Source: a virus
Taxonomy: Duplodnaviria; Caudoviricetes
Strand: one strand, 5' to 3'
IMG/VR virus record: IMGVR_UViG_3300007734_000738
Location: 1-61,230 of that record
DNA: 61,230 bases
Shown: positions 43,586 to 56,059 of the stretch, piece by piece
Layout of the letters: each line of letters begins with the position of its first letter
How positions within the stretch are numbered: position 1 is the stretch's first letter
Program-made: the position numbers and the translations under genes
Notes under the pieces: model-generated
Told to the model about the DNA's origin: nothing
Database searches by the model: none
The model's input: only the letters and a program-made list of their open reading frames with translations

Positions 43586-43966
43586 TCATAGCCCGGCGGC
43601 TTTCAAACAGAATCGTTGCCACCAGTTCTTCGGTACGAGATGTCGAAGCGTACACTCGCTCACCATCATAATGCGTGGAGATATCTGAGACGAATGCAAC
43701 GCAAGTAAATGTTTCGTCTGCGCCTCGTGCGCACGAAGCAATTCAAGCGCCATGATGGCGTACAAATTGCCATCCCCTATGGGAACTTTCTCGTAGCGTT
43801 CGGCGTACCGCACCGACGTCCACACCGCACTCACGATCGGGCTGTGTAGTCGTGCGGCATGCAATCTCCCTTTGGCATCTTCGCCCAGGTCGAACATGTT
43901 GTTGAACGGCGCGGGACTTCGCTCTAAAATGCGTTTCAGTTCACCCTCACTATTCGGCCAACTCAT
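43586..43966 (-). CDS. Hypothetical protein
   Basis: ATG 43966 (MSWPNS) overlaps the PolB stop (ATGA). Confidence 0.55.
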   Translation of the reverse strand: MSWPNSEGELKRILERSPAPFNNMFDLGEDAKGRLHAARLHSPIVSAVWTSVRYAERYEKVPIGDGNLYAIMALELLRAHEAQTKHLLALHSSQISPRIMMVSECTLRHLVPKNWWQRFCLKAAGL

Positions 43967-44767
43967 AGTGTCACCCCCAAATCGTGTAACATTGATTCGG
44001 CCTCCTTGATGTACCATTCACGATTCAGATCGTCTGGAATCAACAACGGAAGCGTCATCAGTGGTTTGGCTCCCTCACTTTTGGGTACCGTATACCCATT
44101 GTTCTTCACGGTGAAGATCTCGGTCGAATCGGTGTAGTACCATCGAATCACTTTGCCGATCGGTTCGTCTCGATAGAGTGCCCCGCCCGTGATGCTGCGA
44201 ATACAGACGAACTCCCGTATGTCCTCGCAACACGCAATCGTGCCGCGGATCGAGGCCCCGAGTGTCAGATAATCGATGACCGCCCGCGAACAGATCGTCG
44301 CCACCGGATTCTTCTGCAAGGGTAACCCCTTCCCATAGACACCCTTCGTTTTCACATCCCCGTTCGTCAAGATTGCCACATAATTATTGACATCACGCGA
44401 GTAGAGTCCCTGGTAGTCCGTGCGTTCGGTCTCGAACCCGGTGGTGGTCTCCCATTCCTTCACCACGGCGAGCGCGTCGTCAACGGAACTCTGGTGGCAG
44501 CGGACGGTCACCCCATCGGTATTGGCCGAGACGACGGTGCAGTCAAGCACCTCCGAGAGCGACTCGATCAGCATGAGGAGTGCGAGTTGTCCCGTGAGGG
44601 TGACTTGCACCATCAACCCCGGCGCGTAGAGGACCGAGAACCGCGACCCGAGTTTACCGAAAGGAACCGTTAATCTGGATCTTACAACCCTCGTTAACCA
44701 CACTGACCCTTATCAGTTCGGACTCCAATTTAGCGAGTGTGCGCTTTAATGAATCGAGATCGGGCAT
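43963..44767 (-). CDS. Family B DNA polymerase, C-terminal half (own RBS and ATG at 44767; needs a +1 shift near 44660)
   Basis: GAGGAGGGAG-TCC-ATG; MPDLDSLKRTLAKLESELIRVSVVNEGCKIQINGSF, then +1 frame GKLGSRFSVLYAP...SANTDG...RDVNNY...KTKG (motifs B and C). Confidence 0.85.
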
Positions 44768-45425
44768 GGACTCCCTCCTCTATGGTTTTGAAATAACCGA
44801 CATAATGTCGTATTCCTCTAATTGTGCAACGAACGATATAACCGCGCCCATCAGCATGCGGGCACACCCCGCGTTGTTTTGTCTTCGCGTTGTTCCAGAC
44901 CACTTGGTCTTTGGGTACCAATAATGAAACGGCATGCTTCCGATTGTGGGCGAATAGCGTGGCAAATTGAGTGCGAGCAGTGATCGCTTCATCTTTCGTC
45001 AGATAACGGCCAAGACGGTACCGAATGCCGAGATAACAGAAACGAGCCTCCCATTGCGCAGTGGCGATTTTCACTACCCCTACATTTCCAGACGTGTTGG
45101 TCTTTAACAATCTGCGGTTTACGCACTGGTCGCTTCTTGTCGCCCACACACAATTGGATTTGCAGTATCCGGCGTTATTGTTTTTTCGTTCAATGGTCCA
45201 GTCAGACCCAGGTCGAATGCCCATATCTTTGGCAAAATGCCGGAAGTGATGCCATACCGGATCCACTTTGATTCCTCGTCCTCCATAATTTTTATAGACA
45301 GGCGTGAGTGGGTTGTAGCACCGAGCCATCATAGACGCCCACACCGAATAGATCGGATGGGCGCGGCATCGATAGCCGTCAACGAGTTGTCTACGCGGGT
45401 GATAGGTGCGATTGTGTTTTCTCAT
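44730..45425 (-). CDS. Free-standing HNH-AP2 homing endonuclease splitting the polymerase gene
   Basis: YSVWASMMARCYNP...YKNYGGRGIKV...TIERKNNNAGYCKSNCVWAT, NTSGNVGV, two AP2-like repeats (LGRY..KDEA; VGYFKTIEEG); AT-richer than its flanks. Confidence 0.88.
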   Translation of the reverse strand: MRKHNRTYHPRRQLVDGYRCRAHPIYSVWASMMARCYNPLTPVYKNYGGRGIKVDPVWHHFRHFAKDMGIRPGSDWTIERKNNNAGYCKSNCVWATRSDQCVNRRLLKTNTSGNVGVVKIATAQWEARFCYLGIRYRLGRYLTKDEAITARTQFATLFAHNRKHAVSLLVPKDQVVWNNAKTKQRGVCPHADGRGYIVRCTIRGIRHYVGYFKTIEEGVHARSRFIKAHTR

Positions 45426-46506
45426 TTTCCAAATTATATATTTCTTTTTTGATATTTGCAATCTCTTTTTTGAGTTCACTTGCCCGTCGTTTTGCCTTGA
45501 CTCGCTGGTTGAATAAATCCCGGTATACCTGCAAAAATGATGGACCAATGTGAGGAGGGCGCAATTCTTGGTTGAGAATAATCATTGGATAGTACGACGT
45601 CACGTCGAAATCCATCAACACATAGTCGTCGGTCGCCTCGACCACCTGGCATTCTTCTGTCGAATGCAATCCCCCAATGCCCATTTTGAACGTGGCGGTC
45701 CCTGTCGTGAGTGTTTTATTCGCGAGCGCTTTCGGCATAAGGACTGATCCTTTGTCGTTCACGACGAACTCGGACTGCCGAACCGCATCGAGGACATCGA
45801 ATCGGCGAAACGTCATCCAGTCTGGGATCGTATACTGGTATTTATTACCCGCAAGATCACCAGGTTTGAACACCCGTTCGCCCACAATCTTTTCACACTC
45901 GCTGCGAATCACAGCCTCGGCCACCTGGGCATCGGACTTGCTCCGGAGATCGATGCCGTAGGTCGCCGACATCTGTTCACGCAATTCGAGTTGTACCTTC
46001 AACGAGCGATAGAGATCGGTCGTCGTCTCTAAGTCGTTCGAACAATACTCCGTAAGAATCGCGATCTGCTCCGGCGTGACGTGGGTGTCGTGCTGAATGG
46101 GCAATTCCTGAATGAACCGCGAGTGCATCCTGCCGCCATAGAGTTTCAGACTGCCCGCCATCGGCGCCACGTCCATCAGGTCGACGTGATCGAGCCCCGT
46201 CGGGTTCAACTTCACGTTGAATTCTTTCTCGAAGTGCCACGGTTTCAGATGATGCACAATGATCCGGTTGCTGGCCTTCTTGATCTCCTCCGCCGTGGCG
46301 CCCTTCAATGCGAGCATCAGGATAGGGATGTCATACCCCTGGCCGTTAAACGTGATCAACCGATGTTCTCGGATGACCTTCCGAAGCGCCGGTAGATCCA
46401 TCGGATGTTCGAACTTGAATTCTTCGCGCGTCTCAACATTCCGGAAATAAAACAGGGTCCAATTCCAGAAGACTTCACTGTCAAAGACGAGGACCGGTCG
46501 AGTCAT
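45391..46506 (-). CDS. Family B DNA polymerase, N-terminal half (exonuclease plus motif A)
   Basis: VFDSE, TFNGQGYDIP, YCSNDL, DFDVTSYYP, then RVKAKR and a heptad-like tail ending at TAG. Confidence 0.9.
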   Translation of the reverse strand: MTRPVLVFDSEVFWNWTLFYFRNVETREEFKFEHPMDLPALRKVIREHRLITFNGQGYDIPILMLALKGATAEEIKKASNRIIVHHLKPWHFEKEFNVKLNPTGLDHVDLMDVAPMAGSLKLYGGRMHSRFIQELPIQHDTHVTPEQIAILTEYCSNDLETTTDLYRSLKVQLELREQMSATYGIDLRSKSDAQVAEAVIRSECEKIVGERVFKPGDLAGNKYQYTIPDWMTFRRFDVLDAVRQSEFVVNDKGSVLMPKALANKTLTTGTATFKMGIGGLHSTEECQVVEATDDYVLMDFDVTSYYPMIILNQELRPPHIGPSFLQVYRDLFNQRVKAKRRASELKKEIANIKKEIYNLENEKTQSHLSPA

Positions 46507-46895
46507 CGGAATCGCGCCCATTGGCTGAGTAACCATGGCGACATACGTTCGGTCAGGTGATGATCTGCGAGATACACCGTATCCTTACTAGCTCCTCGTA
46601 CACCCGGGTCATGGTGCAGATTCCCTCGTTCGGTTGCGACGGATGCGGCATACACGAGAATCGAACCGTTCTCTTCTTTGCCAACATAGACCTGTTGACC
46701 CCATGAAACTGTGCGCACACGCAGTTTCATTCCCTCAACGACTGAGGTGAAAATTGTTCGGACAATCTGATCAACGTTACGTCGTGTGTCGCACCAGATC
46801 ACTACCGTGGCGTGTTCCTTCGTGACGACACGCAAGGCTTCCTGTACCATGCGTGTCGTGCGGCCGGTGCCTCGGAGATGTTTGAACGGATCCAC
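46503..46895 (-). CDS. Hypothetical protein with P-loop-like RGTGRTT
   Basis: GTG start near 46895; ATGA overlap with PolB. Confidence 0.5.
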   Translation of the reverse strand: MDPFKHLRGTGRTTRMVQEALRVVTKEHATVVIWCDTRRNVDQIVRTIFTSVVEGMKLRVRTVSWGQQVYVGKEENGSILVYAASVATERGNLHHDPGVRGASKDTVYLADHHLTERMSPWLLSQWARFR

Positions 46896-46896
46896 C

Positions 46897-47532
46897 TCAG
46901 TGCTCCTGCCCGTTCTTACTGATCTCGACATCCTCCGACACGAGTTCAACCTTCGGCCACGCCGGCTGCGGCGCGTACGGCATTTTCCGCACGAGCACCG
47001 AGATCGTCTCATGTGCCTGCGCATTGTACTGTTGCTGCTGGAACAGTGCCTGCTCCAGCATTTGTACTTCGAGACGTTTCTCCTGGAGGGTCTTCGCCAG
47101 ATGGCGATTCTCGCTGGTGAGCGAGATCATCGCCGCGGTCTGATTGCTGAGTCCCTCACGGAGATCGTAAATCTCTCGTTCCGAATCCGCGATCGTGACC
47201 GCGTGCTTCTTCATGGGATGTCCTTCCTCCTGACTCCGGTCGTGTTCGGCCGGTTGGTCCGGATTCTTCGGAATGATAAATGTGCGCGACTGGTTCTTCT
47301 TGAGTTTCGCCATGAGCATCTTCACGATGTCGGCGGCATTATAGCCGGCTCGCCACGCGCCGTCAAGTGCTAAAATGATGACGTCGATCCATTCTTCGAG
47401 ATCGGTCGGCTTGGCGAAGAGTTCGTCCAGTTCTTTCCGAATGTGATTGACCGGCCGCGTGGAGAAGGCTCCCTCACCGAACGTCTTTTGGCTCCATCGA
47501 ATGTGCTCTCGGATGTAGGTACGTAAATTCAT
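46897..47532 (-). CDS. dATP/dGTP pyrophosphohydrolase (DUF550, MazG-like) with a coiled-coil C-terminal extension
   Basis: WSQKTFG...VNHIRKELDEL...PTDLEEWIDVIILALDGAWRAG. Confidence 0.8.
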   Translation of the reverse strand: MNLRTYIREHIRWSQKTFGEGAFSTRPVNHIRKELDELFAKPTDLEEWIDVIILALDGAWRAGYNAADIVKMLMAKLKKNQSRTFIIPKNPDQPAEHDRSQEEGHPMKKHAVTIADSEREIYDLREGLSNQTAAMISLTSENRHLAKTLQEKRLEVQMLEQALFQQQQYNAQAHETISVLVRKMPYAPQPAWPKVELVSEDVEISKNGQEH

Positions 47533-47726
47533 AGCGCCTCAAATCCTTCTGTGTCAGGTTTACAAACATGACGCGCACGTTCTTCAGTGTAGAGACAACT
47601 GGTCCCATCGTTGAACGCCTCCCAATGCAGATCGTCTTCTCCGCACCGATTGCAGGTGATCAGTTTCGCGGTGGGACATTCCCATTCCGCATCATCATGA
47701 AATAACGCGTCAGCCATCTCACCCAT
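47529..47726 (-). CDS. Small Zn-finger-like protein
   Basis: MGEMAD...TCNRCGEDDLHW...HVC. Confidence 0.6.
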   Translation of the reverse strand: MGEMADALFHDDAEWECPTAKLITCNRCGEDDLHWEAFNDGTSCLYTEERARHVCKPDTEGFEAL

Positions 47727-47744
47727 ACAACACCTCTCCTTATT

Positions 47745-47937
47745 GGCTCGGGTGCGGTCTTGCTCACGCTGTAGTTAGCTCGTACGGTTCGCGAAACCCC
47801 CGGCTTGTAGGGGTCACTTCATGCGTCCGACCTTGTTGCGCTTTTTCCCGACCGCCCCGTGCTCTCGGCATAGTCCCCCAATTGCTGACGGGTTTGAACC
47901 GCCACCGAAAGTTACCGCGCTGGGTTTGACCCGAGCC
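47745..47937 (-). ncRNA. Candidate structured ncRNA (193 nt), family unknown
   Basis: Closing stem GGCUCGGGU/ACCCGAGCC, T-arm-like UGGCGG-UUCAAAC-CCGUCA, internal GCGGUC/GACCGC; fills an ORF-free gap. Confidence 0.55.
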
Positions 47938-48016
47938 TCTAGAGGGTTACGGAGGACGCATCTGCAGGTGTGGGGCTCTTAACCTTACCTCCGGGGGATG
48001 CGTCCTCCGAGGTCGC

Positions 48017-48412
48017 CTATTCGACGACCAGCGGTCCGAGGAGTTTGAACTCCAATGCTTCGAGTCCCTTTTCACCATCCCCAAACGAGGTCAACGTGAT
48101 CGGTGCCACGTTGACCTCCTGGGTCTGTTCACAGTAGGCTTCCCATTCCTTCGCAAACTCCTTGTAGGCCGGCGTGTTCTCCCCGAGTTGCCATCCTACC
48201 GAAATCGTATTTGCTTCGTCGGTGAACTGCTCGCTGCCATACTTTTGCACCAATTCAATTCGATGTTCTTCGATCGGCGTAAACGCCTTTTCCAAGGCGT
48301 CGTGGAGACGTGCAATCTTGAACTTCGCCGTCATCGGGATCTCTCGCTTGCCACCCATCAGCATGTTGGCGCCACGATAGCCGCAATGAATTTGTCCGTA
48401 GGTGAGGATCAT
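48017..48412 (-). CDS. Hypothetical protein
   Basis: 131 aa; RIELVQKYG pattern; RBS. Confidence 0.65.
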   Translation of the reverse strand: MILTYGQIHCGYRGANMLMGGKREIPMTAKFKIARLHDALEKAFTPIEEHRIELVQKYGSEQFTDEANTISVGWQLGENTPAYKEFAKEWEAYCEQTQEVNVAPITLTSFGDGEKGLEALEFKLLGPLVVE

Positions 48413-48591
48413 ATTAAGTCGTCTCCTTCTTTCGTGTAGTGAGATTTAGGTGCCACATAGACCGCCGATCCCATGGTGCCGTCTGCGTACCGAAGAATAC
48501 AGAGAAAATGTTCCTCCAATTCCTCAATCGCGATCGGCCATCGGTGTGTCTCTCGCAGTGCCGGATCGACGGCTATGAGTTTGATCTGCAT
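48409..48591 (-). CDS. Small hypothetical protein
   Basis: MQIKLIAVDP...; overlaps the next start. Confidence 0.45.
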   Translation of the reverse strand: MQIKLIAVDPALRETHRWPIAIEELEEHFLCILRYADGTMGSAVYVAPKSHYTKEGDDLI

Positions 48592-48622
48592 GGTCTTACT
48601 CTGCGGTTGCCAGATCCGTGGT

Positions 48623-48680
48623 CGGCGCTTCGACGACGGGCGCTTCGACGACGGGCGCTTCGACGACGGGCGCTTCGACG
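48623..48680. repeat. 15-bp tandem repeat (GGCGCTTCGACGACG, about 4 units; VVEAP in the minus frame)
   Basis: Directly visible in the sequence. Confidence 0.9.
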
Positions 48681-48685
48681 GCATC

Positions 48686-49192
48686 CTACTCGACGGCCGG
48701 GGGCTCAACCTCCTGTGCCGGCACACCGGCGTCGAGTAGGATGCCGTCGATTGGGGCCTCGATCGGCGTCGCCGAAATCTCCGGTGCGGTCTCAACGACC
48801 GAGGGGAGGCCCAGCGCACAGGGACCAGCACACAGGTCGTAGCGGTCTTGAATCGCCACCAATCCGCGCACGATCCCGATCGAGATCGCGTAGGCGTCTT
48901 GCTGTGACGCGGTCAGATCTTCAAAGGGCGCGAGATTGGGATGGCGTTTCCCGACGACATCCAACTCTCCGTACTGCCACCCTTCCAGGTGGATCATCTC
49001 GCTCATCCAGGCGTTGTGGAGCGACTTGGGCGTCGACGCCGGTTCGGCGAGCAGGACGTTGACCAGAAACACCGACAACTTTCGTTGCCGATCTGTCAGG
49101 TCGTCCCAGTGCACACCCGGATTGCCGATTTGTTCCGCGTGTGCGGCCATTGCTTCTCTGCAGACCTGTGCCATATGTCGTACCTTAATCAT
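48686..49192 (-). CDS. RyR-domain phage protein
   Basis: TPKSLHNAWM......GWQYG..D...KRHPNLAPFEDL..SQQ. Confidence 0.75.
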   Translation of the reverse strand: MIKVRHMAQVCREAMAAHAEQIGNPGVHWDDLTDRQRKLSVFLVNVLLAEPASTPKSLHNAWMSEMIHLEGWQYGELDVVGKRHPNLAPFEDLTASQQDAYAISIGIVRGLVAIQDRYDLCAGPCALGLPSVVETAPEISATPIEAPIDGILLDAGVPAQEVEPPAVE

Positions 49193-49212
49193 GTGTGCAT
49201 CTCCTTGTTGGT

Positions 49213-49311
49213 TGGTGGAGCCGGCGGAGTCCAACCGCTCTTCTCCGTCCTGTCACGGGGATCGCCCATGATCCAGTTGACGGAGCGTGCTCGCGTTACA
49301 CGAATGGCCCC
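49213..49311 (-). ncRNA. tRNA-like RNA with Ala-type acceptor (G3-U) and encoded CCA, no anticodon loop
   Basis: GGGGCC...GGCUCC-ACCA; D-like arm CGUG/CACG; extended bulged arm CUCCGUC/GACGGAG; T-like arm GCGG-UUGGACU-CCGC. Confidence 0.72.
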
Positions 49312-49316
49312 GTGAA

Positions 49317-49540
49317 TTAAAAGGACTCGGGCTTCGCGATGCTGCGCGTCAACCCCATGAATCCCGTCTGCAAATTCGTCGCGCCGAGTGAGACCCAACG
49401 CTTGTCGGTGTCTGGTAACAGCTTCAACTCCCCACCAAGCTTCCCACTTCAGCGCCGAGCATCTTGATCGTGTTCATGATCGCGATTTCATGCTCGGTGA
49501 GTTCGCGATAACCCTTGATCTTCCGATGCTGGTTGTCCAC
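49317..49540 (-). CDS. acb2: Acb2-like anti-CBASS nucleotide sponge, 1-nt frameshift in a G4 run (49430-49433)
   Basis: AAGGAGG-GTG; MDNQHRKIKGYRELTEHEIAIMNTIKMLG..., then -1 frame DKRWVSLGATNLQTGFMGLTRSIAKPESF*; both halves match Acb2 as I recall it. Confidence 0.8.
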
Positions 49541-49652
49541 AACGTCCTCCTTGAATAGTGGGATGCGCGAGCCCCTTGATGACGTGACCACCTCGGTGTA
49601 TGCCGAGGATCACGGCGGAGTCGCCGCCACCACTCCACGCATCCCGGTTTCT

Positions 49653-50234
49653 TTACACCAAATCGTCGGCTTCTGATTCGAGCGCTTCCATCCCCTCTGC
49701 GTTGGCCGGTCCGCTTCCGCTGAAGCTGTCCCCGTCCTTCACGAACTGCACGGTGACCAAGGTAGCGCGAATGGCCTTGCCAAACTGGTTGTCCTGCGCC
49801 CACAGTTGCACCTTCGCGTTCACGAAGCAACCTCCGTACGGCTTCCCGGAATCGGAGGCCAGTTCGCTGAGATCGCGGTCGAGAAGTTTCGGCGCCCCGT
49901 CATCTTTACCACGACCGGCGGACAGCGCCATGTTGCCGGCGAAGCCGTCATAGGCCTTCGTGTTGCCGTCGACGTAGCAGAACTTCCCGCTGCCCGAGGC
50001 CTTGGCCTGCGCCACGATCGGGGCGGCCTTCTCGCCCCACTTGTTCTTGCCGGCCTTCTCGATGGCCGTCAGAATGGCCTTGTCGGCCTCACTCCCTGGC
50101 GTGACCAAGAACACCGCCTTGTAGTTGAACGGTCCCTTCCCGTCGAACTGCACCGCTTCGCGCAGATCGGGGAACGCCAACCGGACGTTTTTGATAATGA
50201 TCGTGGTATCGGAACCTTTGACAGCCTCTGACAT
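49653..50234 (-). CDS. Single-stranded DNA-binding protein (DUF2815)
   Basis: NVRLAFPDL, PYGGCFVNA...WAQDNQFGKAIRATL..VQFVKDGDSFSG, acidic tail. Confidence 0.88.
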   Translation of the reverse strand: MSEAVKGSDTTIIIKNVRLAFPDLREAVQFDGKGPFNYKAVFLVTPGSEADKAILTAIEKAGKNKWGEKAAPIVAQAKASGSGKFCYVDGNTKAYDGFAGNMALSAGRGKDDGAPKLLDRDLSELASDSGKPYGGCFVNAKVQLWAQDNQFGKAIRATLVTVQFVKDGDSFSGSGPANAEGMEALESEADDLV

Positions 50235-50262
50235 AATACAATCCTCCTTGGTGATGAATGAA

Positions 50263-50523
50263 TTAAAACGTCTTGGACTCGAACTTCTTGATGGCCGCGA
50301 GCGCGACGTCGTAATCGCCTTGAAACAGCACGTCCGTGACGTCGACAGACACGCGCTTTCGCCGATCCTCTCGGGCACACTGCAGGCGATACGCGCGGAG
50401 GTCATACGCCTTCAGCTTCTTCCGCAACGCCCGAATTGCTTGTGGATCTTTCGGAGTTGGGATTTCCCGGAATCGCACGGCACGTATTCGCTCTTGCAGA
50501 TACTTGAATGCTTGCGGTGTCAT
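50263..50523 (-). CDS. Hypothetical protein
   Basis: GGGGGAGG RBS; ATGA overlap. Confidence 0.55.
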   Translation of the reverse strand: MTPQAFKYLQERIRAVRFREIPTPKDPQAIRALRKKLKAYDLRAYRLQCAREDRRKRVSVDVTDVLFQGDYDVALAAIKKFESKTF

Positions 50524-51887
50524 ATGAGATCCTCCCCCGTGTCGACGACCTCGCGTGTGACACTCGACACGTTGGCGACAGTCCCAATCGCTGCGAGATC
50601 TGCCACGGCCTCTGCGAAGGCCGTGTCATGCGCATCAATCACGGCCTCAAATCCCTCTTCCGCCTTCTCTAGCATGTATTCCGCGCGCTTGTCGCTAACC
50701 GGTGCGACGTGAATCGATCCCTCCGCCTGTGCGTAGAGTGCCTTCAACGTCTCCCACCGACCGGGGCTCTTCTTCGCTAGGAGTTTCTCGGCATCCGTCG
50801 GGCTGATGATCGCATAGTTGTACATCTCGTCTTTCTTAAGACGAAAGACTTTCATCTGCGCTTCCACCGCCGTCTTGTCCGTCCACTGCCGGTTGCCCTT
50901 CTTGCCCTGCACCAACTTGAACCCGGTGACGGGGCGACCGGCGAGGAGTTCCACTTCGGTGGCACCGCGGACCCCTTTGATCCACAGTTCGGCGAGATCT
51001 GCGATCTCCATGAACCGCCCCAAACGATCGGGCGTGGGGAGTTCCGATACCCCATCAACCTTGGTGATAAATCCGGTCGCGGTGAACGGCGCCGGATCGA
51101 GCATGCCGAACCCTGACGTCATATAGTTCACCACCAGATCCGTCAAGGCCGGACACGTCGACTTGGCTTTACAGAACCGACAGGCCTTCTCACTGGGCGT
51201 ACGTGGAAGCCCTTTCGTGAGCGTCCAGACCCCGGTGGTGGGATCAATATAGGACACCCGTTTCGCCGTGGTCTTGACGACCTCCCCAAACGCGAGCAGC
51301 TCCACCATCGGCACCACCCAGTCGGAGTTACCGCCGTTGCGCGGTTGCGAGATCGCAATGCGCACCGTGTCGTAGTCGTCCTGCACTTGATGCTTCTCGA
51401 TGACACCCAAGGCGTACATCATGGCCTGCCGGTTCTGCTCCGGCGAGACGACGACCCCGCGCCCGAACTTCAGATCCCCCACAAACAGTTCCCGATCGGT
51501 GCGCAGCACCACCGCGTCGCTGGTCCCGATCGCATCCGGTTCGCCGGTGAGATGGGTGAGCGGCACCTCTTCTTCTGCGAGTAGAATCCCATCTTCGTCC
51601 CGATGGGACCGGACAAAGTCCACATAATTCTGGACGAAGGCGGCGTTCTCCTCCGTCAGAATCGCCCCGCTCAACATGGGGCGCCCCACGAGGTCCTCGG
51701 CGTGGAGGTTTTCCTCCAGGCATACCGCCGCGACTTCGTGATGGTCCGTGCCCTCCTCCGCATACGCCGACGTGACGTTCGGGAGGCCGGCTTGGGCCTC
51801 GGTCGATCCGAGACAGGTCATCCAGGTATCGGCCTTGGAGGGGCCGAGTACTGCGTGCTTGCTTTTTTCTGGTACGTCGAGCATCAC
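50520..51887 (-). CDS. DUF2800 / Cas4-like PD-(D/E)xK exonuclease
   Basis: HAVLGPS..W..C.GS, AEEGTDHH, GTSDAV, DLKFGRG, QAMMYALG, QPR, CRFCKAKSTC. Confidence 0.88.
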   Translation of the reverse strand: MMLDVPEKSKHAVLGPSKADTWMTCLGSTEAQAGLPNVTSAYAEEGTDHHEVAAVCLEENLHAEDLVGRPMLSGAILTEENAAFVQNYVDFVRSHRDEDGILLAEEEVPLTHLTGEPDAIGTSDAVVLRTDRELFVGDLKFGRGVVVSPEQNRQAMMYALGVIEKHQVQDDYDTVRIAISQPRNGGNSDWVVPMVELLAFGEVVKTTAKRVSYIDPTTGVWTLTKGLPRTPSEKACRFCKAKSTCPALTDLVVNYMTSGFGMLDPAPFTATGFITKVDGVSELPTPDRLGRFMEIADLAELWIKGVRGATEVELLAGRPVTGFKLVQGKKGNRQWTDKTAVEAQMKVFRLKKDEMYNYAIISPTDAEKLLAKKSPGRWETLKALYAQAEGSIHVAPVSDKRAEYMLEKAEEGFEAVIDAHDTAFAEAVADLAAIGTVANVSSVTREVVDTGEDLI

Positions 51888-51893
51888 GCCTCC

Positions 51894-52259
51894 TTATACG
51901 AGCGGCAATTCCGCGTTGGCTTTGGTCACGAACTCACCATACTGTGCCGCCTGCAGTTCTTTGCCGTTCTTGACGCCGAACGTCCCGAGCAGCGCCACGA
52001 CTTTCGGCTTGCCGTGCTTGCTCACTAATTTCGGAATGAGATCGGCGATCGTGGCGTAGGGGATCACACCCTCGACGGGCTTCTCGGCGGCTGCCGATGC
52101 CGCAGGGGTGGTGACTGTTGTCGGTTCGGTGGGTGCCGTCTTCTTCGACGCCTTCGGTTCGACGGCCGCTTCACTCGGGCTCGTCTTCCCACCAAGAAAC
52201 TCACGCATGGTCGCGTGAATATCACTCACCGTTGCCGCACTAAATGAGACTTCAATCAT
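51894..52259 (-). CDS. Conserved hypothetical protein preceding DUF2800
   Basis: GAGGAGG RBS; C-terminal LLGTFGVKNGKEL...YGEF. Confidence 0.7.
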   Translation of the reverse strand: MIEVSFSAATVSDIHATMREFLGGKTSPSEAAVEPKASKKTAPTEPTTVTTPAASAAAEKPVEGVIPYATIADLIPKLVSKHGKPKVVALLGTFGVKNGKELQAAQYGEFVTKANAELPLV

Positions 52260-52314
52260 GGAATCCTCCTCGGGTGATGTAATTAAGAGATCGCTCGCCA
52301 CGTCAACGGGGCGA

Positions 52315-52388
52315 AGTTTACAGGATGTGAATATCGGTTGTCAAGCGTTATTTTCTCCTTGACACGGATGTGATCGTCTTGTTATGCT
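52315..52388. promoter_or_regulatory. Back-to-back sigma70-like promoters
   Basis: Rightward TTGACA(52359)-18-TATGCT with TG extension; leftward TTGACA(52344)-18-TAAACT; at the strand switch. Confidence 0.7.
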
Positions 52389-52417
52389 ATGCGCCTTACA
52401 ATATGGAGGGCGAGATC

Positions 52418-52669
52418 ATGACGTACTTATTGTGGATCTATCTACTCGGGGTCGTCCCGTCCGGTGTGCTGGTAGCGGGATGGCTGGTCGCCTATACGCA
52501 AGGTGTGTTTCCATCCCTCGCACAGAAGGCGTATACCTCAGATATGGCCCACGCGATTCTCATAGGGGTCGCCGGGGGATTCCTCTGGCCGATCCTCCTT
52601 CCGGTCGTGTATAGTCTGACCGAGCGCGCGCAATGTGGATGGTCGCTTCAGAGAGGGGGCGCCCGATGA
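52418..52669 (+). CDS. Small 2-TM membrane protein
   Basis: GGAGGGCGAGATC leader; two hydrophobic segments. Confidence 0.6.
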   Translation: MTYLLWIYLLGVVPSGVLVAGWLVAYTQGVFPSLAQKAYTSDMAHAILIGVAGGFLWPILLPVVYSLTERAQCGWSLQRGGAR

Positions 52670-53025
52670 GTATGACGGTGCGACATCGCTACTGCATCCA
52701 CGACAGTTCGCCTGCGGGCTTGCTTCGATTCGCGCGACGGGCTGCGGATCGGGCCGTGGAATGTCTTGGCAATTTTGAGTTCGGTCAGGCGCGTCGCCAT
52801 TTGGCGAGCATCATCGAACTGCTGGCCGCGCTTGCAGAGGAACTGGAGCCACCCCATGTCTCCTAAGAAATCTTTTGTCCTGTTTCCTCGTACCACGCCC
52901 CGTCGCACCAAGGCGGGCGTCGCGATGAAAGTCGCACGATTGGTGACACACAGTGCGCACTTGTTCCCTGGCGTGCCGGCGCCGGTGGTAGTACCGAAAC
53001 GGGCGTATCGTCGAAAGGACAAGTC

Positions 53026-53250
53026 GTGACACTGATACTCGCGTGGATTCCGGTGGTGGTAGTATTGGGTACGCTGGTGTGGGGGCTCAGTTGGTTGCTG
53101 TATGACGCCGTGATGCGGGATGTACGGGCAAACGGCTGTCGTCGAGTAGGACAAGATTGGTTTTACGGTGTGCTCGCTATGCTGGTTTTGGGATATATCG
53201 TTTGGGGATTCGGTGTGGTCCTTGAATGGCTGGTACAGGTGACACGATGA
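53026..53250 (+). CDS. Small 2-TM membrane protein
   Basis: Two hydrophobic segments; GTGA overlap. Confidence 0.5.
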   Translation: MTLILAWIPVVVVLGTLVWGLSWLLYDAVMRDVRANGCRRVGQDWFYGVLAMLVLGYIVWGFGVVLEWLVQVTR

Positions 53251-53570
53251 CCAACACGCAACTGAATCAGCGCGTGGCAGTGTTGCTGGGGTGGAAGGTG
53301 GAATACCCATCGGCAGTTGGCTATAAGGAAGTTACGATGTTATGGATGCCAGATGGTCGTCAGTGGTCCCCCTCCACCAACCTCGCCCAGGCGATGGAGT
53401 TGTGGGCGGAGCATCGTCCAGCCAATAAACCATTTGAAATGCAACTTGGCAGTAGTGGCAAATGGGCCGTATGGGGCTCAGATGAGGTAGGCCAAGTTGT
53501 CTCATACACTGACCTTCCCCGCGCCATTACTGAGGCGTGGTGTGAGGCGAAGGAACAGGAGGGGAAGTAA
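53247..53570 (+). CDS. Phage hypothetical protein (NinX / ABA-sandwich-like)
   Basis: LNQRVAVLLGW...WSPSTNLAQAMEL...LPRAITEA. Confidence 0.6.
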   Translation: MTNTQLNQRVAVLLGWKVEYPSAVGYKEVTMLWMPDGRQWSPSTNLAQAMELWAEHRPANKPFEMQLGSSGKWAVWGSDEVGQVVSYTDLPRAITEAWCEAKEQEGK

Positions 53571-53851
53571 TGAACTATCGCAAGAAGCCAGTAGTGATTG
53601 AGGCTATACAGTTGCAGCGTGGCAACCTAAAAGATGTTGAGACCTTTTTATTCGGCAGGGTGATGCCTGAATCGTATCTTCCTTCTGAACAGTTCTCGAT
53701 CAATTGGGGGAATAGCGAAGTACATATCTACACGCTTGAAGGAACGATGCGGGCGACTCCTGGTGATTGGATCATCCGAGGCGTAAAGGGAGAGCTTTAT
53801 CCTTGTAAGCCTGACATTTTCACGGTGACTTACGAGCAGGTGAACCCATGA
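53570..53851 (+). CDS. Conserved phage protein (YRKKPVVIEA...TLEG...GDWII.GVKGELYPCKPDIF..TYE family)
   Basis: Strongly recognisable motif set. Confidence 0.8.
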   Translation: MNYRKKPVVIEAIQLQRGNLKDVETFLFGRVMPESYLPSEQFSINWGNSEVHIYTLEGTMRATPGDWIIRGVKGELYPCKPDIFTVTYEQVNP

Positions 53852-54192
53852 CCCCCACTGAGGCACAGGAGATGAAACTACAGACGGCGAAACTATGGGA
53901 GCATCTCATTACGTATACGCCAGAGCATCCGATCCTCACAGATGCGGAATCTAAGGCCGCGATCCTGGCTGCCCTCACCGAGGCTTACGAACGAGGGAGG
54001 CGGGATCAGATGGACGTGGATATGCGCACGGTGCAATCTCTCTGCAATGAGGAATGCAAAGCGTACAAGCAGGATAAATCAGGATGCAATCATCCTGATG
54101 GTGAGTCTGTGCATAACGGCAATGTGGTACGAGTGGCTGACAATTTTCGCATCTGGTACATCAGCGAAGTGGCCACCAAGGAGGGAAAGTGA
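53848..54192 (+). CDS. Hypothetical protein
   Basis: Coupled ATGA and GTGA overlaps. Confidence 0.55.
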   Translation: MTPTEAQEMKLQTAKLWEHLITYTPEHPILTDAESKAAILAALTEAYERGRRDQMDVDMRTVQSLCNEECKAYKQDKSGCNHPDGESVHNGNVVRVADNFRIWYISEVATKEGK

Positions 54193-54437
54193 AGAAGCCT
54201 ATCAAGGTGTTCTATAGCGAACTCTCAGGCCGTTTCTACGCGAGCCAACGGTACAAGGTGTGGCCGAGTGGTCTTGTGGAAATTACAGGTGAGAAGTTCG
54301 ACGTGACCAACGACATTGGCGTGGTCATTGAGAAGTATGCCCTTGAATTTACCGTGAGGAAGAAGTGGGGCAGCCAAAGGTTGGAGATTGGGTGCTGTAC
54401 AAGCACGAATCGGGGCAAGAGATTATGGGTATTGTGA
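54189..54437 (+). CDS. Hypothetical protein
   Basis: SELSGRFYA...GEKFDVT pattern; RBS. Confidence 0.55.
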   Translation: MKKPIKVFYSELSGRFYASQRYKVWPSGLVEITGEKFDVTNDIGVVIEKYALEFTVRKKWGSQRLEIGCCTSTNRGKRLWVL

Positions 54438-55131
54438 GGCAGAAGAAGGGGACGGTGTACACGATCAAAGATTGGCTCACAGACGAGGTAGTGGAGCAAC
54501 GGCAGGTCCTCGAAGTCCGGCCACCCACCAAGGAGGGCGCGTGATCTTCAGATGGTATCACCGAACTTGGCCGACGTGCTGGTGGCACGCGCTCTGGCCG
54601 TGGCGAGAGATAATCGCCTTACAGATGAAGTTGCATACGATTAGGGATATAGATTTACCGCAAGAGCGGCGAGTCATGAGCATGATATTCCAAGTCGAGT
54701 TGGTGAAGTTGCAGCGTGAATTGTCGAATTGTCATGCCGCGTTGAGGCGCAAGGGGAAGGCCCTCAAGCAGTTACATAAGCGGGTGCAGTACCACAAGGA
54801 GAAGCGACCATGACGCGCAACAAGGGCTGGTATCGGTTTAGGTTGCCTGCGTTTCGGTACCGACCCACAAAGCGATGGACACAGGCTGAGATTGACTACT
54901 GCGAGCGGAAAGCGATGTGGATCATGAGAACCTGGGCGAACGACTAACGAGACAGGGGCAGGCGGCGGGGATGAACCCGACCGTGTAGCAAGAGACGCAA
55001 GTAGGGTGAGTGGCGAAGCGCGACGAACTACCAGCCCTTCCTCGATATACTGAGGCGTCAGTCAGTACACGGCTCATACGTAGGAGGTGCCGGTATCCAG
55101 TCCGGCCCTGCCCCACAAACGGAGGAATGAG

Positions 55132-55842
55132 ATGGAACTAACGAGAGAACAGGTGGAGACAATGTTTGGCGTGAGTGGAGGGAGAGAGCTTTCCGGCTTT
55201 CCGTATGAGCTGCAACCTAGTACCGTTAACATGTTGCTGGCCCACGACGCCGCGCTACGGCTGCGCTGTGAGGAGGCGGAGCGGATGCAAGCGCGGTGGA
55301 AGGTGCTGGCTTCGATGACGAAAGAATGTGCCTGTGTGTGGGGGATCAATGAGACGCCAGACGATCAATACTGTGGCGGGGAACATAACGATACGATTGA
55401 ACAGCTTTGTCTGGCACATCAGAAAATGTTTGATAAGCAACTGGCCGACCTGACCGAGAAGTTAGCGGAGATGACGGAGGAGCTGGAGAACTACCGATCC
55501 ATTGCCGAACGCGAAGGGGCAACGATTGCGGTGAGTGAGTTGGTGGTACTAAAAACCCAACTCCAGGCGATGACGAAGGAGCGGGACGAATACGAGGCCT
55601 ACAGTCACCTTGCCAATAGGACATTGGATGATGTGACCGCCCCCCTCAAACAGCAACTCGCCACAGCCCAGGCTGAGAATGTGCGGTTGCGGAAGGCGCT
55701 AGGACACTTTAATCGTACAGCCTTTGAGAAGGCACCTTGTTATATCTGTGGATATAACGGGATAGAGTATTATCAACCCTCTACCCATCCGTGCGCGAAA
55801 CTGTTTCACGAGCAAGCCCTCAACACACAGGAGCCCACATGA
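55132..55842 (+). CDS. Coiled-coil hypothetical protein with Cys motifs
   Basis: GGAGG RBS; CYICGYNG..YYQPSTHPC C-terminus. Confidence 0.6.
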   Translation: MELTREQVETMFGVSGGRELSGFPYELQPSTVNMLLAHDAALRLRCEEAERMQARWKVLASMTKECACVWGINETPDDQYCGGEHNDTIEQLCLAHQKMFDKQLADLTEKLAEMTEELENYRSIAEREGATIAVSELVVLKTQLQAMTKERDEYEAYSHLANRTLDDVTAPLKQQLATAQAENVRLRKALGHFNRTAFEKAPCYICGYNGIEYYQPSTHPCAKLFHEQALNTQEPT

Positions 55843-56059
55843 GCCAGGAGACGGTGCAGGCCATCTTCCAGCGTGAGATGATGCCGATTCTAGAGGCGCG
55901 TAATCAGTGCTTTGCGGACAGGAACCTCAAGAATCCTACACGGCCATTTCCAAAAGGGATGCAATGCTGGTGTGGGCACCATAGAATGCAGGAGTCCACG
56001 TGAATAGACAAACACTCCACTCACATAATCGAGTCGACTCTTACGCCAGAGGAGTACCT

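What the first reader, a model, noticed from the sequence alone, without database searches (positions are those of the whole stretch)
49213..49311. Anticodon-less tRNA-like RNA with an alanine identity element
Seen (99 nt, minus): acceptor GGGGCC/GGCUCC with G3-U, discriminator A and encoded CCA; a 4-bp D-like arm; T-like arm GCGG-UUGGACU-CCGC. In place of the anticodon arm is a 17-bp stem with two 2-nt bulges (CUCCGUC/GACGGAG, CUG/CAG, UCAUGGG/CCCGUGA) and a 5-nt loop. The acceptor-T stack is about one pair short. It starts 5 nt after the acb2 stop and ends just before the next RBS. Established: G3-U70 specifies AlaRS charging in tRNA-Ala and tmRNA. Inference: a tmRNA-like domain with no message, a decoy immune to anticodon nucleases, or an RNase P punctuation signal.
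Basis: partly seen in the sequence, partly recalled or inferred. Interest (0 to 1): 0.75.

Follow-up and report, generated by a model that had tools for sequence, protein, structure and literature searches.

The report
Conserved anticodon-less tRNA-like phage RNA
A lake-water phage and three relatives carry, between an anti-CBASS gene and the next gene, a conserved tRNA-shaped RNA whose anticodon arm is replaced by a long bulged hairpin; it cannot decode, its alanine mark is not conserved, and its role is unknown.

Summary
The described 99-nt fold is at window 49311..49213 (-), exactly as written. It is not a chance fold. Three homologs from metagenome contigs lie in the same slot (Enc34-type SSB, acb2, element, RyR-domain gene). 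Of 32 base pairs, 13 keep pairing through changes on both sides: 4 of 6 in the acceptor stem and 9 of 17 in the long stem. Of 35 unpaired positions, 30 are invariant, although the flanking genes are only 62-66% identical. ARAGORN (introns allowed, lowered thresholds, tmRNA mode) and Rfam 15 call nothing.

The D arm, T arm, U8, A14, G18, U54-U55, A58, discriminator A and encoded CCA are tRNA-like. The anticodon arm is a 17-bp helix with invariant AA and GA bulges and an invariant CGAUC loop.

The G3-U70 pair is present only in the window copy (1 of 4), so alanine identity is not a family trait. The tmRNA-like reading also fails.

Best reading, inferred rather than shown: a natural "tRNA scaffold". 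Host tRNA-processing enzymes cut the RNA out of the operon transcript and keep it stable, and the long arm binds an unknown partner. A role as mRNA punctuation only is the main rival. No RNA data were available. It is a new variant of the virus-encoded tRNA-like RNAs.

The parts
49213..49311 (-). Whole tRNA-like RNA (99 nt; RNA position i = 49312 - i)
   Evidence: Sequence. MFE cloverleaf. Model R2 scores it 116.4 bits, and three homologs score 107.8-115.9 bits.
49306..49311 (-). Acceptor stem, 5' strand (GGGGCC)
   Evidence: 4 of 6 acceptor pairs change on both sides in homologs. G1-C72 and G2-C71 are invariant.
49217..49222 (-). Acceptor stem, 3' strand (GGCUCC; U at 49219 makes the G3-U pair)
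   Evidence: The G-U at pair 3 occurs only in the window copy.
49213..49216 (-). Discriminator A plus encoded CCA
   Evidence: Invariant in 4 of 4 sequences.
49286..49302 (-). D-like arm (C-GUGU / AACGCGA / GCAC-G)
   Evidence: 8 of 10 stem positions and 5 of 7 loop positions are invariant. There is no covariation, and 2 pairs are broken in L088. The motif GUGUAACGGUAGCAC is the D arm of canonical phage tRNA-Gln and tRNA-Trp.
49243..49285 (-). Long arm replacing the anticodon arm: 17 bp, AA bulge (49278-49277), GA bulge (49273-49272), apical loop CGAUC (49264-49260)
   Evidence: 9 of 17 pairs change on both sides and 97.1% of cells are paired. All 4 bulge positions and all 5 loop positions are invariant.
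49239..49242 (-). Variable-loop-like AAGA
   Evidence: 4 of 4 positions invariant. The same AAGA+GCGG junction occurs in canonical phage tRNA-Glu(UUC).
49224..49238 (-). T-like arm GCGG / UUGGACU / CCGC
   Evidence: 7 of 8 stem positions and 6 of 7 loop positions are invariant. Only the third loop base varies: G, A, A, C.
49317..49540 (-). Upstream acb2-like gene, split by a frameshift in this record (first frame stops at 49426-49424; second frame ends at TAA 49319-49317)
   Evidence: Translations. Pfam PF24729 matches both halves. The gene is an intact 74-aa ORF in L155 and L082, and an intact ORF whose C-terminal part matches it in L088. A contig of run X14 covers 49279-49686 with 0 differences.
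48686..49192 (-). Downstream gene, RyR-domain protein (168 aa); RBS AAGGAG at 49206-49201
   Evidence: Pfam PF02026 E 3.3e-6. phrog_5154, unknown function. Orthologs follow the element in all three relatives.
49653..50237 (-). Enc34-type ssDNA-binding protein gene, used as the anchor to find relatives
   Evidence: Pfam PF10991 E 9.2e-25. Related loci.

Best explanation
It is a real, selectively maintained, phage-encoded RNA of about 96-99 nt that derives from a tRNA. The acceptor stem with encoded ACCA, the D arm and the T arm are kept. The anticodon arm is replaced by a 17-bp helix with two invariant 2-nt bulges and an invariant 5-nt loop.

Shown: the fold, its conservation, and its fixed place between acb2 and the RyR-domain gene, with no promoter-like or terminator-like site of its own.

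Inferred: it is transcribed as part of the replication/early operon. Its tRNA-shaped module recruits the host's tRNA-maturation enzymes, with RNase P cutting at G1 and 3' trimming back to the CCA. The RNA is therefore cut out of the polycistronic transcript and persists as a stable small RNA. This makes it a natural counterpart of the engineered 'tRNA scaffold'. The long arm is the working part and binds a specific, still unknown partner, most likely a protein.

It cannot decode codons. Alanine charging is at most a peculiarity of the window copy and is not the family's function.
For: 1. Homologs. Model R1 or R2 finds three relatives: L155:664-761, L082:4057-4153 and L088:4298-4396, at 83-116 bits. 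About 1.86 Mb of other phage and metagenome DNA was searched, and nothing else exceeds 41.9 bits.

2. Covariation. 96.1% of cells are paired and 13 of 32 pairs change on both sides. 0 of 500 shuffles reach this, and slid partners give 1-3 such pairs. A MAFFT alignment not fitted to the model gives the same 13 pairs.

3. Loops conserved, stems free to vary. 30 of 35 unpaired positions are invariant against 33 of 64 paired positions. Across the three lineages the element is 76-81% identical. acb2 is 62-66% identical and the first 360 nt of the RyR gene 63-65%.

4. Same spacing in all four: TAA, 5 nt, G1 ... ACCA, then the RBS. Between 48600 and 50600 there is no promoter-like site and no terminator-like site at the element.

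5. tRNA ancestry. The D-arm motif belongs to canonical phage tRNA-Gln and tRNA-Trp (73 of 80 occurrences). The AAGA plus T arm matches phage tRNA-Glu. In 3 of 160 more distant SSB loci a real tRNA lies downstream of the SSB gene on the same strand.

6. Engineered chimeras of this architecture are described as recognised by the E. coli machinery, precisely processed and protected. They keep the acceptor, T and D arms, and the anticodon stem-loop is replaced by a hairpin insert (PMC3753655, passages read).
Against: There is no RNA evidence of any kind, so expression, ends, stability and partner are all inferred.

Only 4 sequences from 3 lineages are known. L155 and L082 are 95.9% identical.

The D and T arms show no covariation. 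L088 breaks 2 D-stem pairs and L082 breaks 1 T-stem pair. The L082 copy does not fold better than shuffles (z = 0.10).

The acceptor/T stack is one layer short. The outer elbow pair 19:56 is not kept: C-G, A/A, A/A, U/C. Both features could weaken recognition by RNase P and other enzymes that measure or stack on the tRNA elbow.

The strong conservation of the tRNA module would also fit a purely cis-acting processing signal.
Confidence: 0.55

Rival explanations
1. Cis-acting mRNA punctuation only. The tRNA-like fold is an RNase P (and 3' processing) signal that separates the acb2 and RyR cistrons and sets their stabilities. The excised piece has no function of its own.
For: It is packed tightly between a stop codon (5 nt upstream) and an RBS (6 nt downstream) in all four loci, and it has no promoter or terminator of its own. 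A similar tRNA-like element lies 5 nt after one ORF and 4 nt before the next, between terminase genes, in L260. The encoded CCA and discriminator are invariant.
Against: A processing signal does not need an invariant 5-nt apical loop and two invariant bulges 30-40 nt from the cleavage site, yet all 9 of those positions are invariant. Real tRNAs, or simple hairpins, would serve as punctuation.
Confidence: 0.2
2. RNA counter-defence factor. This is a special case of the best explanation. The scaffolded hairpin or the tRNA-like module is a decoy or sponge for a host immune protein. Candidates are an enzyme that attacks tRNA acceptor ends or elbows, or an RNA-sensing cyclase of CBASS type. It is co-expressed with the Acb2 sponge.
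For: It lies immediately after acb2 in 4 of 4 loci. Phage tRNAs are reported to evade tRNA-cleaving defences (PMC11555353 and PMC13096335, abstracts seen). A structured phage RNA is reported as the trigger of a staphylococcal CBASS cyclase (PMC10686824, listing and start of abstract).
Against: Adjacency within one lineage is weak evidence, because all four loci share ancestry. No defence target is known. An RNA without an anticodon cannot replace a cleaved tRNA or serve as bait for an anticodon nuclease.
Confidence: 0.12
3. An aminoacylated tRNA-like RNA. It would be charged with alanine through G3-U70, or by another synthetase that ignores the anticodon, and act as a non-ribosomal amino-acid donor or as a tmRNA-like module.
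For: The window copy has G1-C72, G2-C71, G3-U70, G4-C69 and A73. From recalled knowledge, this is the acceptor set that lets AlaRS charge even minihelices. A73, G1-C72, G2-C71 and CCA are invariant in all four.
Against: G3-U70 occurs in 1 of 4 members. No tmRNA call, no message domain, and a real D stem. No SmpB gene in the window. The acceptor/T stack is one layer short, and the 19:56 pair is not kept.
Confidence: 0.08
4. A decaying tRNA pseudogene, a chance GC-rich fold, or a DNA-level hairpin.
For: The single-sequence z-score is only -2.34. The L082 copy carries disruptive changes and has z = 0.10. About 5% of elements bearing the same D arm (4 of 80) are odd tRNA-like sequences that could be pseudogenes.
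Against: 13 of 32 pairs show compensatory changes. The loops are more conserved than the stems, and the element is more conserved than its flanking genes. The invariant U-G pairs (D stem, and columns 44:56 of the long stem) pair only on the transcribed strand.
Confidence: 0.03

Closest known systems
Engineered 'tRNA scaffold' for recombinant RNA (Ponchon and Dardel; PMC3753655, passages read)
   Same: Same architecture. The acceptor stem, D arm and T arm are kept, and the anticodon stem-loop is replaced by an inserted hairpin that continues the anticodon stem.
   Different: The scaffold is man-made. Here the design is natural, sits inside a phage operon, has a stack one layer short and a non-canonical 19:56 pair, and its processing is untested.
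Phage T4 RNAC and RNAD (small RNAs from the tRNA region)
   Same: They are phage-encoded small non-tRNA RNAs linked to tRNA genes, with biological roles stated as unknown (PMC3014915 and PMC9697503, passages read).
   Different: blastn of the element region (271 nt, window 49150-49420) against 50,697 phage records found no match. The element here lies in a replication/anti-defence operon of a phage with no tRNA genes. That RNAC and RNAD are tRNA-like and cut by RNase P is my recollection only.
tmRNA tRNA-like domain
   Same: Acceptor stem with ACCA, a T arm, and a long helix leaving from the anticodon side. The window copy even shares the GGGGC...GCUCCACCA ends and G3-U70.
   Different: It has a true D stem, no mRNA-like domain or pseudoknots, and G3-U70 in only 1 of 4 members. 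ARAGORN in tmRNA mode and Rfam find nothing.
Bacterial Y RNA-like YrlA
   Same: A tRNA-like module joined to a long protein-binding stem. This comparison is from recall.
   Different: The topology is opposite. In YrlA the 5' and 3' ends form the Ro-binding stem, whereas here they form the acceptor stem. There is no Rfam hit and no TROVE/Rsr gene in the window.
Canonical phage tRNAs (Gln/Trp D arm, Glu T arm)
   Same: The D-arm motif, U8, A14, G18, A21, U54, U55, A58, the 4-nt variable region and the encoded CCA.
   Different: There is no 5-bp/7-nt anticodon arm. G19-C56 is replaced, and there is one nucleotide fewer on the 3' strand. ARAGORN and Rfam RF00005 do not call it.

Membership tests
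Canonical tRNA (Rfam RF00005 / ARAGORN) | Recognised by the tRNA covariance model or ARAGORN | tested here: not met
   0 ARAGORN genes in the window. 0 in all four family members with introns allowed and lowered thresholds. 0 Rfam hits at gathering score or at E<=10.
Canonical tRNA (Rfam RF00005 / ARAGORN) | 5-bp anticodon stem with a 7-nt loop presenting an anticodon | tested here: not met
   A 17-bp bulged helix with a 5-nt loop is conserved in 4 of 4.
Canonical tRNA (Rfam RF00005 / ARAGORN) | Acceptor stem, discriminator, CCA, D arm and T arm with U8, A14, G18, U54-U55, A58 | tested here: met
   All are present and invariant. The acceptor is 6 bp plus a mismatch layer, and the 3' strand is one nucleotide short.
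Canonical tRNA (Rfam RF00005 / ARAGORN) | G19-C56 elbow pair | tested here: not met
   The positions read C/G (window), A/A (L155 and L082) and U/C (L088).
tRNA-Ala-type AlaRS substrate | G3-U70 wobble pair conserved | tested here: not met
   Present in 1 of 4, the window only. L155 has G4-U69 instead, L082 has all G-C, and L088 has C3-G70.
tRNA-Ala-type AlaRS substrate | Actual alanylation | not testable with these tools
   Needs a charging assay. The window copy alone has the full acceptor set.
tmRNA (tRNA-like domain plus message) | mRNA-like domain with a tag reading frame and pseudoknots | tested here: not met
   The RNA is 99 nt and is bounded by a stop codon and an RBS. ARAGORN tmRNA mode finds 0 in 4 sequences, and there is no Rfam tmRNA hit.
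tmRNA (tRNA-like domain plus message) | D loop without a D stem; SmpB partner | tested here: not met
   A D stem of 4-5 bp is present. No SmpB (PF01668) is encoded in the window. Host SmpB cannot be assessed.
YrlA / Y RNA | Ro-binding stem formed by the RNA's own ends; Rsr (TROVE) partner | tested here: not met
   The ends form the acceptor stem. No Rfam hit. No TROVE domain in the window.
Natural 'tRNA-scaffolded' hairpin RNA (works-like class, not a curated family) | Acceptor, D and T arms kept; anticodon stem-loop replaced by a hairpin continuing the stem | tested here: met
   The engineered design is described in PMC3753655.
Natural 'tRNA-scaffolded' hairpin RNA (works-like class, not a curated family) | Excision by RNase P and 3' processing, and accumulation as a stable RNA | not testable with these tools
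   No usable RNA data were available (see Tried and rejected).

The most novel reading that the evidence does not exclude
Phages use a natural tRNA scaffold to express an RNA-based counter-defence factor. Host tRNA enzymes cut the tRNA-shaped module out of the acb2 operon transcript and stabilise it. The invariant bulged hairpin, a 17-bp imperfect duplex, acts as a decoy that occupies a host immune sensor or nuclease without activating it. The target could be, for example, an RNA-sensing CBASS cyclase. The RNA would then complement the Acb2 nucleotide sponge encoded 5 nt upstream, as a bacterial-virus analogue of the small decoy RNAs of animal viruses.
Probability: 0.12. Interest if true: 0.85.

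Novelty: new variant of a known kind. Interest (0 to 1): 0.6.

Why it matters
Virus-encoded tRNA-like RNAs are known, but conserved phage RNAs that keep the whole tRNA body and swap the anticodon arm for a conserved structured insert are not in Rfam 15. I also did not find them in five literature searches.

If the RNA is processed and stable, it is a natural precedent for the tRNA-scaffold trick used in biotechnology. It would also be a new class of phage small RNA to screen for function. Its fixed position beside acb2 makes an RNA-based anti-defence role directly testable.

The result also corrects an attractive but wrong reading. The alanine identity pair is a feature of one copy only.

Tried and rejected
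**Searches for homologs that found none**
- blastn of window 49150-49420 (distant mode) and megablast of 44000-56000 against 50,697 phage records gave no match.
- An exact 26-nt stretch of the element gave 0 hits in viral contigs.
- The search for related loci with the RyR protein in viral contigs gave 0 confirmed relatives.
- 80 viral-contig loci found through the SSB (<=51% identity) held no homolog by R1 or R2.
- The narrow-family hairpin motif gave 5 viral hits, none confirmed by R2.
- The one-layer-short T-arm/acceptor motif gave 0 viral hits.
- The 23-nt hairpin motif in genome contigs gave 1 hit, in an actinomycete MAG (L257). Only the hairpin matches, so I rejected it as chance.
- blastn of two outgroup elements against the phage records gave no match.

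**A lead that I withdrew**
- In loci L001-L262 the D-arm motif GUGUAACG..GCAC occurred only in elements that ARAGORN does not call (11 distinct occurrences against 967 called tRNAs). This suggested a signature of a separate family.
- An unbiased scan refuted it. One each was called Phe, 'Pyl'(cta) and undetermined, and 4 were not called.

**Readings rejected**
- Intron-containing tRNA: ARAGORN -i finds nothing, and the two bulges lie on one strand, unlike a bulge-helix-bulge splice motif.
- D-armless tRNA in which the 5-bp/7-nt hairpin serves as the anticodon arm: that hairpin is homologous to real D arms.
- attP or integration remnant: the fold is complete, and I saw no integrase among the proteins scanned. 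Not every ORF was scanned.
- Terminator: none was predicted at the element.
- No shared neighbour gene among the outgroup tRNA-like elements.

**Sequencing runs**
- No RNA holder was listed.
- The four runs laid (X14-X17) held only short identical contigs. They gave no variants and no evidence on expression or ends, and parts without cover mean nothing.

- Paper supplements were not consulted.

Full report
**Observation.**
- The acceptor is GGGGCC/GGCUCC with G3-U, followed by discriminator A and CCA.
- A small D-like hairpin (GUGU-AACGCGA-GCAC) follows, and the MFE fold adds a flanking C-G pair.
- The long arm has 17 bp in three segments, with AA and GA bulges on the 5' strand and a CGAUC loop.
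- AAGA follows, then the T-like arm GCGG-UUGGACU-CCGC and one unpaired C.
- G1 lies 5 nt after the TAA of the upstream gene. The CCA ends 6 nt before AAGGAG, and the ATG is at 49192.

RNAfold returns this cloverleaf as the minimum-energy structure: -44.1 kcal/mol, z = -2.34, 3 of 200 shuffles as good. On its own that is only modest support.

**Detectors.** ARAGORN finds no tRNA or tmRNA in the 61-kb window. It also finds none in the four family members with introns allowed, thresholds lowered or tmRNA mode. Rfam 15 gives no hit at gathering score for the window and none at E<=10 for 49100-49450.

**Context.** The window is a whole IMG/VR virus record.
- It carries a T4-type terminase, an SU10-type portal, a 3152-aa protein with an LPD38 domain, a DUF2800 nuclease, a primase-polymerase/VapE protein and a DNA polymerase.
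- The element lies in a minus-strand block: DUF2800 nuclease, Enc34-type SSB, acb2, element, RyR-domain gene, and further on the DNA polymerase.
- The upstream gene is acb2-like, with Pfam PF24729 matching both halves. In this record it is split by a frameshift.
- No promoter-like site lies between 48600 and 50600, and no terminator-like site lies at the element. The element is therefore most simply part of the operon transcript.

**Homologs.**
- I built a covariance model from the window sequence (R1). It found nothing in 80 viral loci whose SSB is at most 51% identical.
- Among 80 metagenome loci found with the SSB, the three with SSB identity of 76-80% each hold one strong match: L155:664-761, L082:4057-4153 and L088:4298-4396 (83-102 bits with R1; 108-116 bits with R2).
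- Every other hit in about 1.86 Mb searched scores 41.9 bits or less.
- In all three relatives the order is SSB, acb2 (intact), element, RyR-domain gene. L088 has an extra ORF between SSB and acb2.
- All share the same spacing: TAA, 5 nt, G1 ... ACCA, RBS.

**Selection.**
- On the model-fitted alignment, 96.1% of cells pair and 13 of 32 pairs change on both sides. That is 4 of 6 in the acceptor stem, 9 of 17 in the long stem, 0 of 5 in the D arm and 0 of 4 in the T arm.
- 0 of 500 shuffles reach these values, and sliding the partners gives only 1-3 such pairs. A plain MAFFT alignment gives the same 13 pairs.
- Unpaired positions are invariant in 30 of 35 cases, against 33 of 64 paired positions. 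All 4 bulge bases, all 5 apical-loop bases, AAGA and ACCA are invariant.
- Across the three lineages the element is 76-81% identical. acb2 is 62-66% and the RyR gene 63-65%.
- This is the signature of a functional structured RNA, not of a decaying pseudogene.
- Limits: there are four sequences from three lineages, and L155 and L082 are 95.9% alike. The L082 copy carries disruptive changes and does not fold better than shuffles. The D and T arms are supported by conservation only.

**What is not conserved.**
- G3-U70 is present in the window only. L155 has G3-C70 and G4-U69, L082 has G-C pairs, and L088 has an entirely different acceptor, GGCCUG/CAGGCC.
- G1-C72, G2-C71, A73 and CCA are invariant.
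- The window copy alone carries the complete acceptor set that, from recalled knowledge, lets AlaRS charge minihelices. Alanine identity is therefore not a family property.

**Relation to real tRNAs.**
- With tRNA numbering the family keeps U8, A14, G18, A21, U54, U55 and A58.
- The outer elbow pair 19:56 reads C/G, A/A, A/A and U/C.
- The 3' strand has one nucleotide fewer than a tRNA, so the acceptor/T stack is one layer short.
- The D-arm motif GUGUAACGGUAGCAC belongs to canonical phage tRNA-Gln (55) and tRNA-Trp (18) among 80 occurrences examined.
- The AAGA plus T arm matches phage tRNA-Glu(UUC). That sample was drawn with a T-arm pattern and is biased.
- In 3 of 160 more distant SSB loci a real tRNA (Thr, Ile or Met) lies downstream of the SSB gene on the same strand.
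- The element is thus tRNA-derived, and it sits in a slot that some relatives use for tRNA genes.

**Other odd tRNA-like elements.**
- Pattern scans turned up tRNA-shaped elements with the same D arm and an AGAGCGGUUCRAYUCCGC T arm, but with abnormal central arms.
- ARAGORN called none of them. Rfam, which I ran only on L174, L183 and L184, called none of those there.
- They are L184:11133-11238 (106 nt, ACCA end, 41.9 bits), two tandem copies in L183, L174:2934-3003, L184:7677-7751, L258/L259/L261 (100 nt, directly after tRNA-Pro), L260 (between terminase genes), L262, L308 and L313.
- Their central arms are unrelated to each other and they share no neighbour gene. I cannot say whether they are functional.
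- They show that the window's family is one conserved case of a recurrent theme.
- My earlier idea that the D arm marks a separate family was wrong (corrected).

**Mechanism.**
- Shown: a conserved tRNA-like body, a conserved non-decoding arm, and a fixed place inside an operon.
- Inferred: the body recruits RNase P and 3' trimming, so the RNA is excised and stable. Engineered chimeras of this architecture are described as recognised, precisely processed and protected in E. coli (PMC3753655, passages read).
- The invariance of the bulges and loop, 30-40 nt from any processing site, argues that the arm binds something specific. I put this reading at 0.55.
- The main rival is punctuation only (0.2).
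- A counter-defence decoy is a bolder special case (0.12). Only the adjacency to acb2 and the literature on phage tRNAs and phage RNAs in defence suggest it (PMC11555353, PMC13096335 and PMC10686824; abstracts or listings seen).
- A charged tRNA-like or tmRNA-like role is unlikely (0.08), and a pseudogene or chance fold very unlikely (0.03).

**Comparison and novelty.**
- The element works like a tRNA scaffold.
- It fails the membership tests for canonical tRNA, tmRNA and YrlA.
- The nearest natural analogues are T4 RNAC and RNAD, whose roles are stated as unknown (PMC3014915 and PMC9697503, passages read).
- Five literature searches and Rfam 15 gave no description of this RNA. Subscription journals and supplements were not covered.
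- I rate it a new variant of a known kind, with interest 0.6.

Noticed in passing
window 49317-49540 (-): The acb2-like gene is split by a frameshift. The first frame stops at 49426-49424, and the C-terminal half continues in another frame to the TAA at 49319-49317. The three relatives have intact acb2 ORFs. A contig from an independent run (X14) covers 49279-49686 with no difference, so the break is reproducible in assemblies. It could be a pseudogene, programmed frameshifting or a shared assembly artefact.
   Followed up: partly
window 45394-46536 (-) and 43966-44703 (-): The DNA polymerase (phrog_1252) is encoded in two ORFs that match profile positions 48-404 and 411-653. About 690 nt separate them, and this gap holds a small ORF (44780-44992). 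The gene may be split or may carry an intron or a homing-endonuclease insertion.
   Followed up: no
window 36777-39131 (-): A 785-aa ORF has Hint and LAGLIDADG matches, some below Pfam's cut-off. It looks like an intein with a homing endonuclease inside an unidentified host protein.
   Followed up: no
window 27311-36766 (+): A 3152-aa ORF whose only Pfam match is the LPD38 domain near its C-terminus (large polyvalent protein type).
   Followed up: no
L087:1071-1144, L107:1530-1601, L158:3757-3834: In 3 of 160 loci related through the SSB, a canonical tRNA lies downstream of the SSB gene on the same strand: Thr-CGU, Ile-GAU and Met-CAU. This is roughly the slot the tRNA-like RNA occupies in the window.
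   Followed up: partly
L183:6100-6272 (-): Two tandem tRNA-like elements share the acceptor, D arm and T arm. One has a very short central region and the other a long one. They lie inside a 25-tRNA array, and neither ARAGORN nor Rfam calls them.
   Followed up: partly
L184:7763-7859 (+) and L174:2934-3003 (+): ARAGORN calls a 97-nt tRNA with anticodon CUA and a long extra arm, labelled 'Pyl'. Separately, an uncalled tRNA-like element has CUA in a very small loop. These may be amber-suppressor-type tRNAs in phages with tRNA arrays.
   Followed up: no
L174:332-406 (+): A Pistol ribozyme (Rfam RF02679, 53.5 bits) lies directly upstream of a tRNA-Arg gene (410-486) in a phage tRNA array.
   Followed up: no
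L088:3595-4110 (+): A 171-aa ORF is inserted between SSB and acb2 in this relative only. By eye it has Cys pairs and an H-N-H-like motif typical of HNH homing endonucleases. I did not check it against Pfam.
   Followed up: no
L155 versus L082: The acb2 genes are 100% identical. The element is 95.9% identical and the downstream gene 88.6%. All the element's differences lie in the 3' third plus one stem base. This suggests a recombination breakpoint inside or next to the element.
   Followed up: partly
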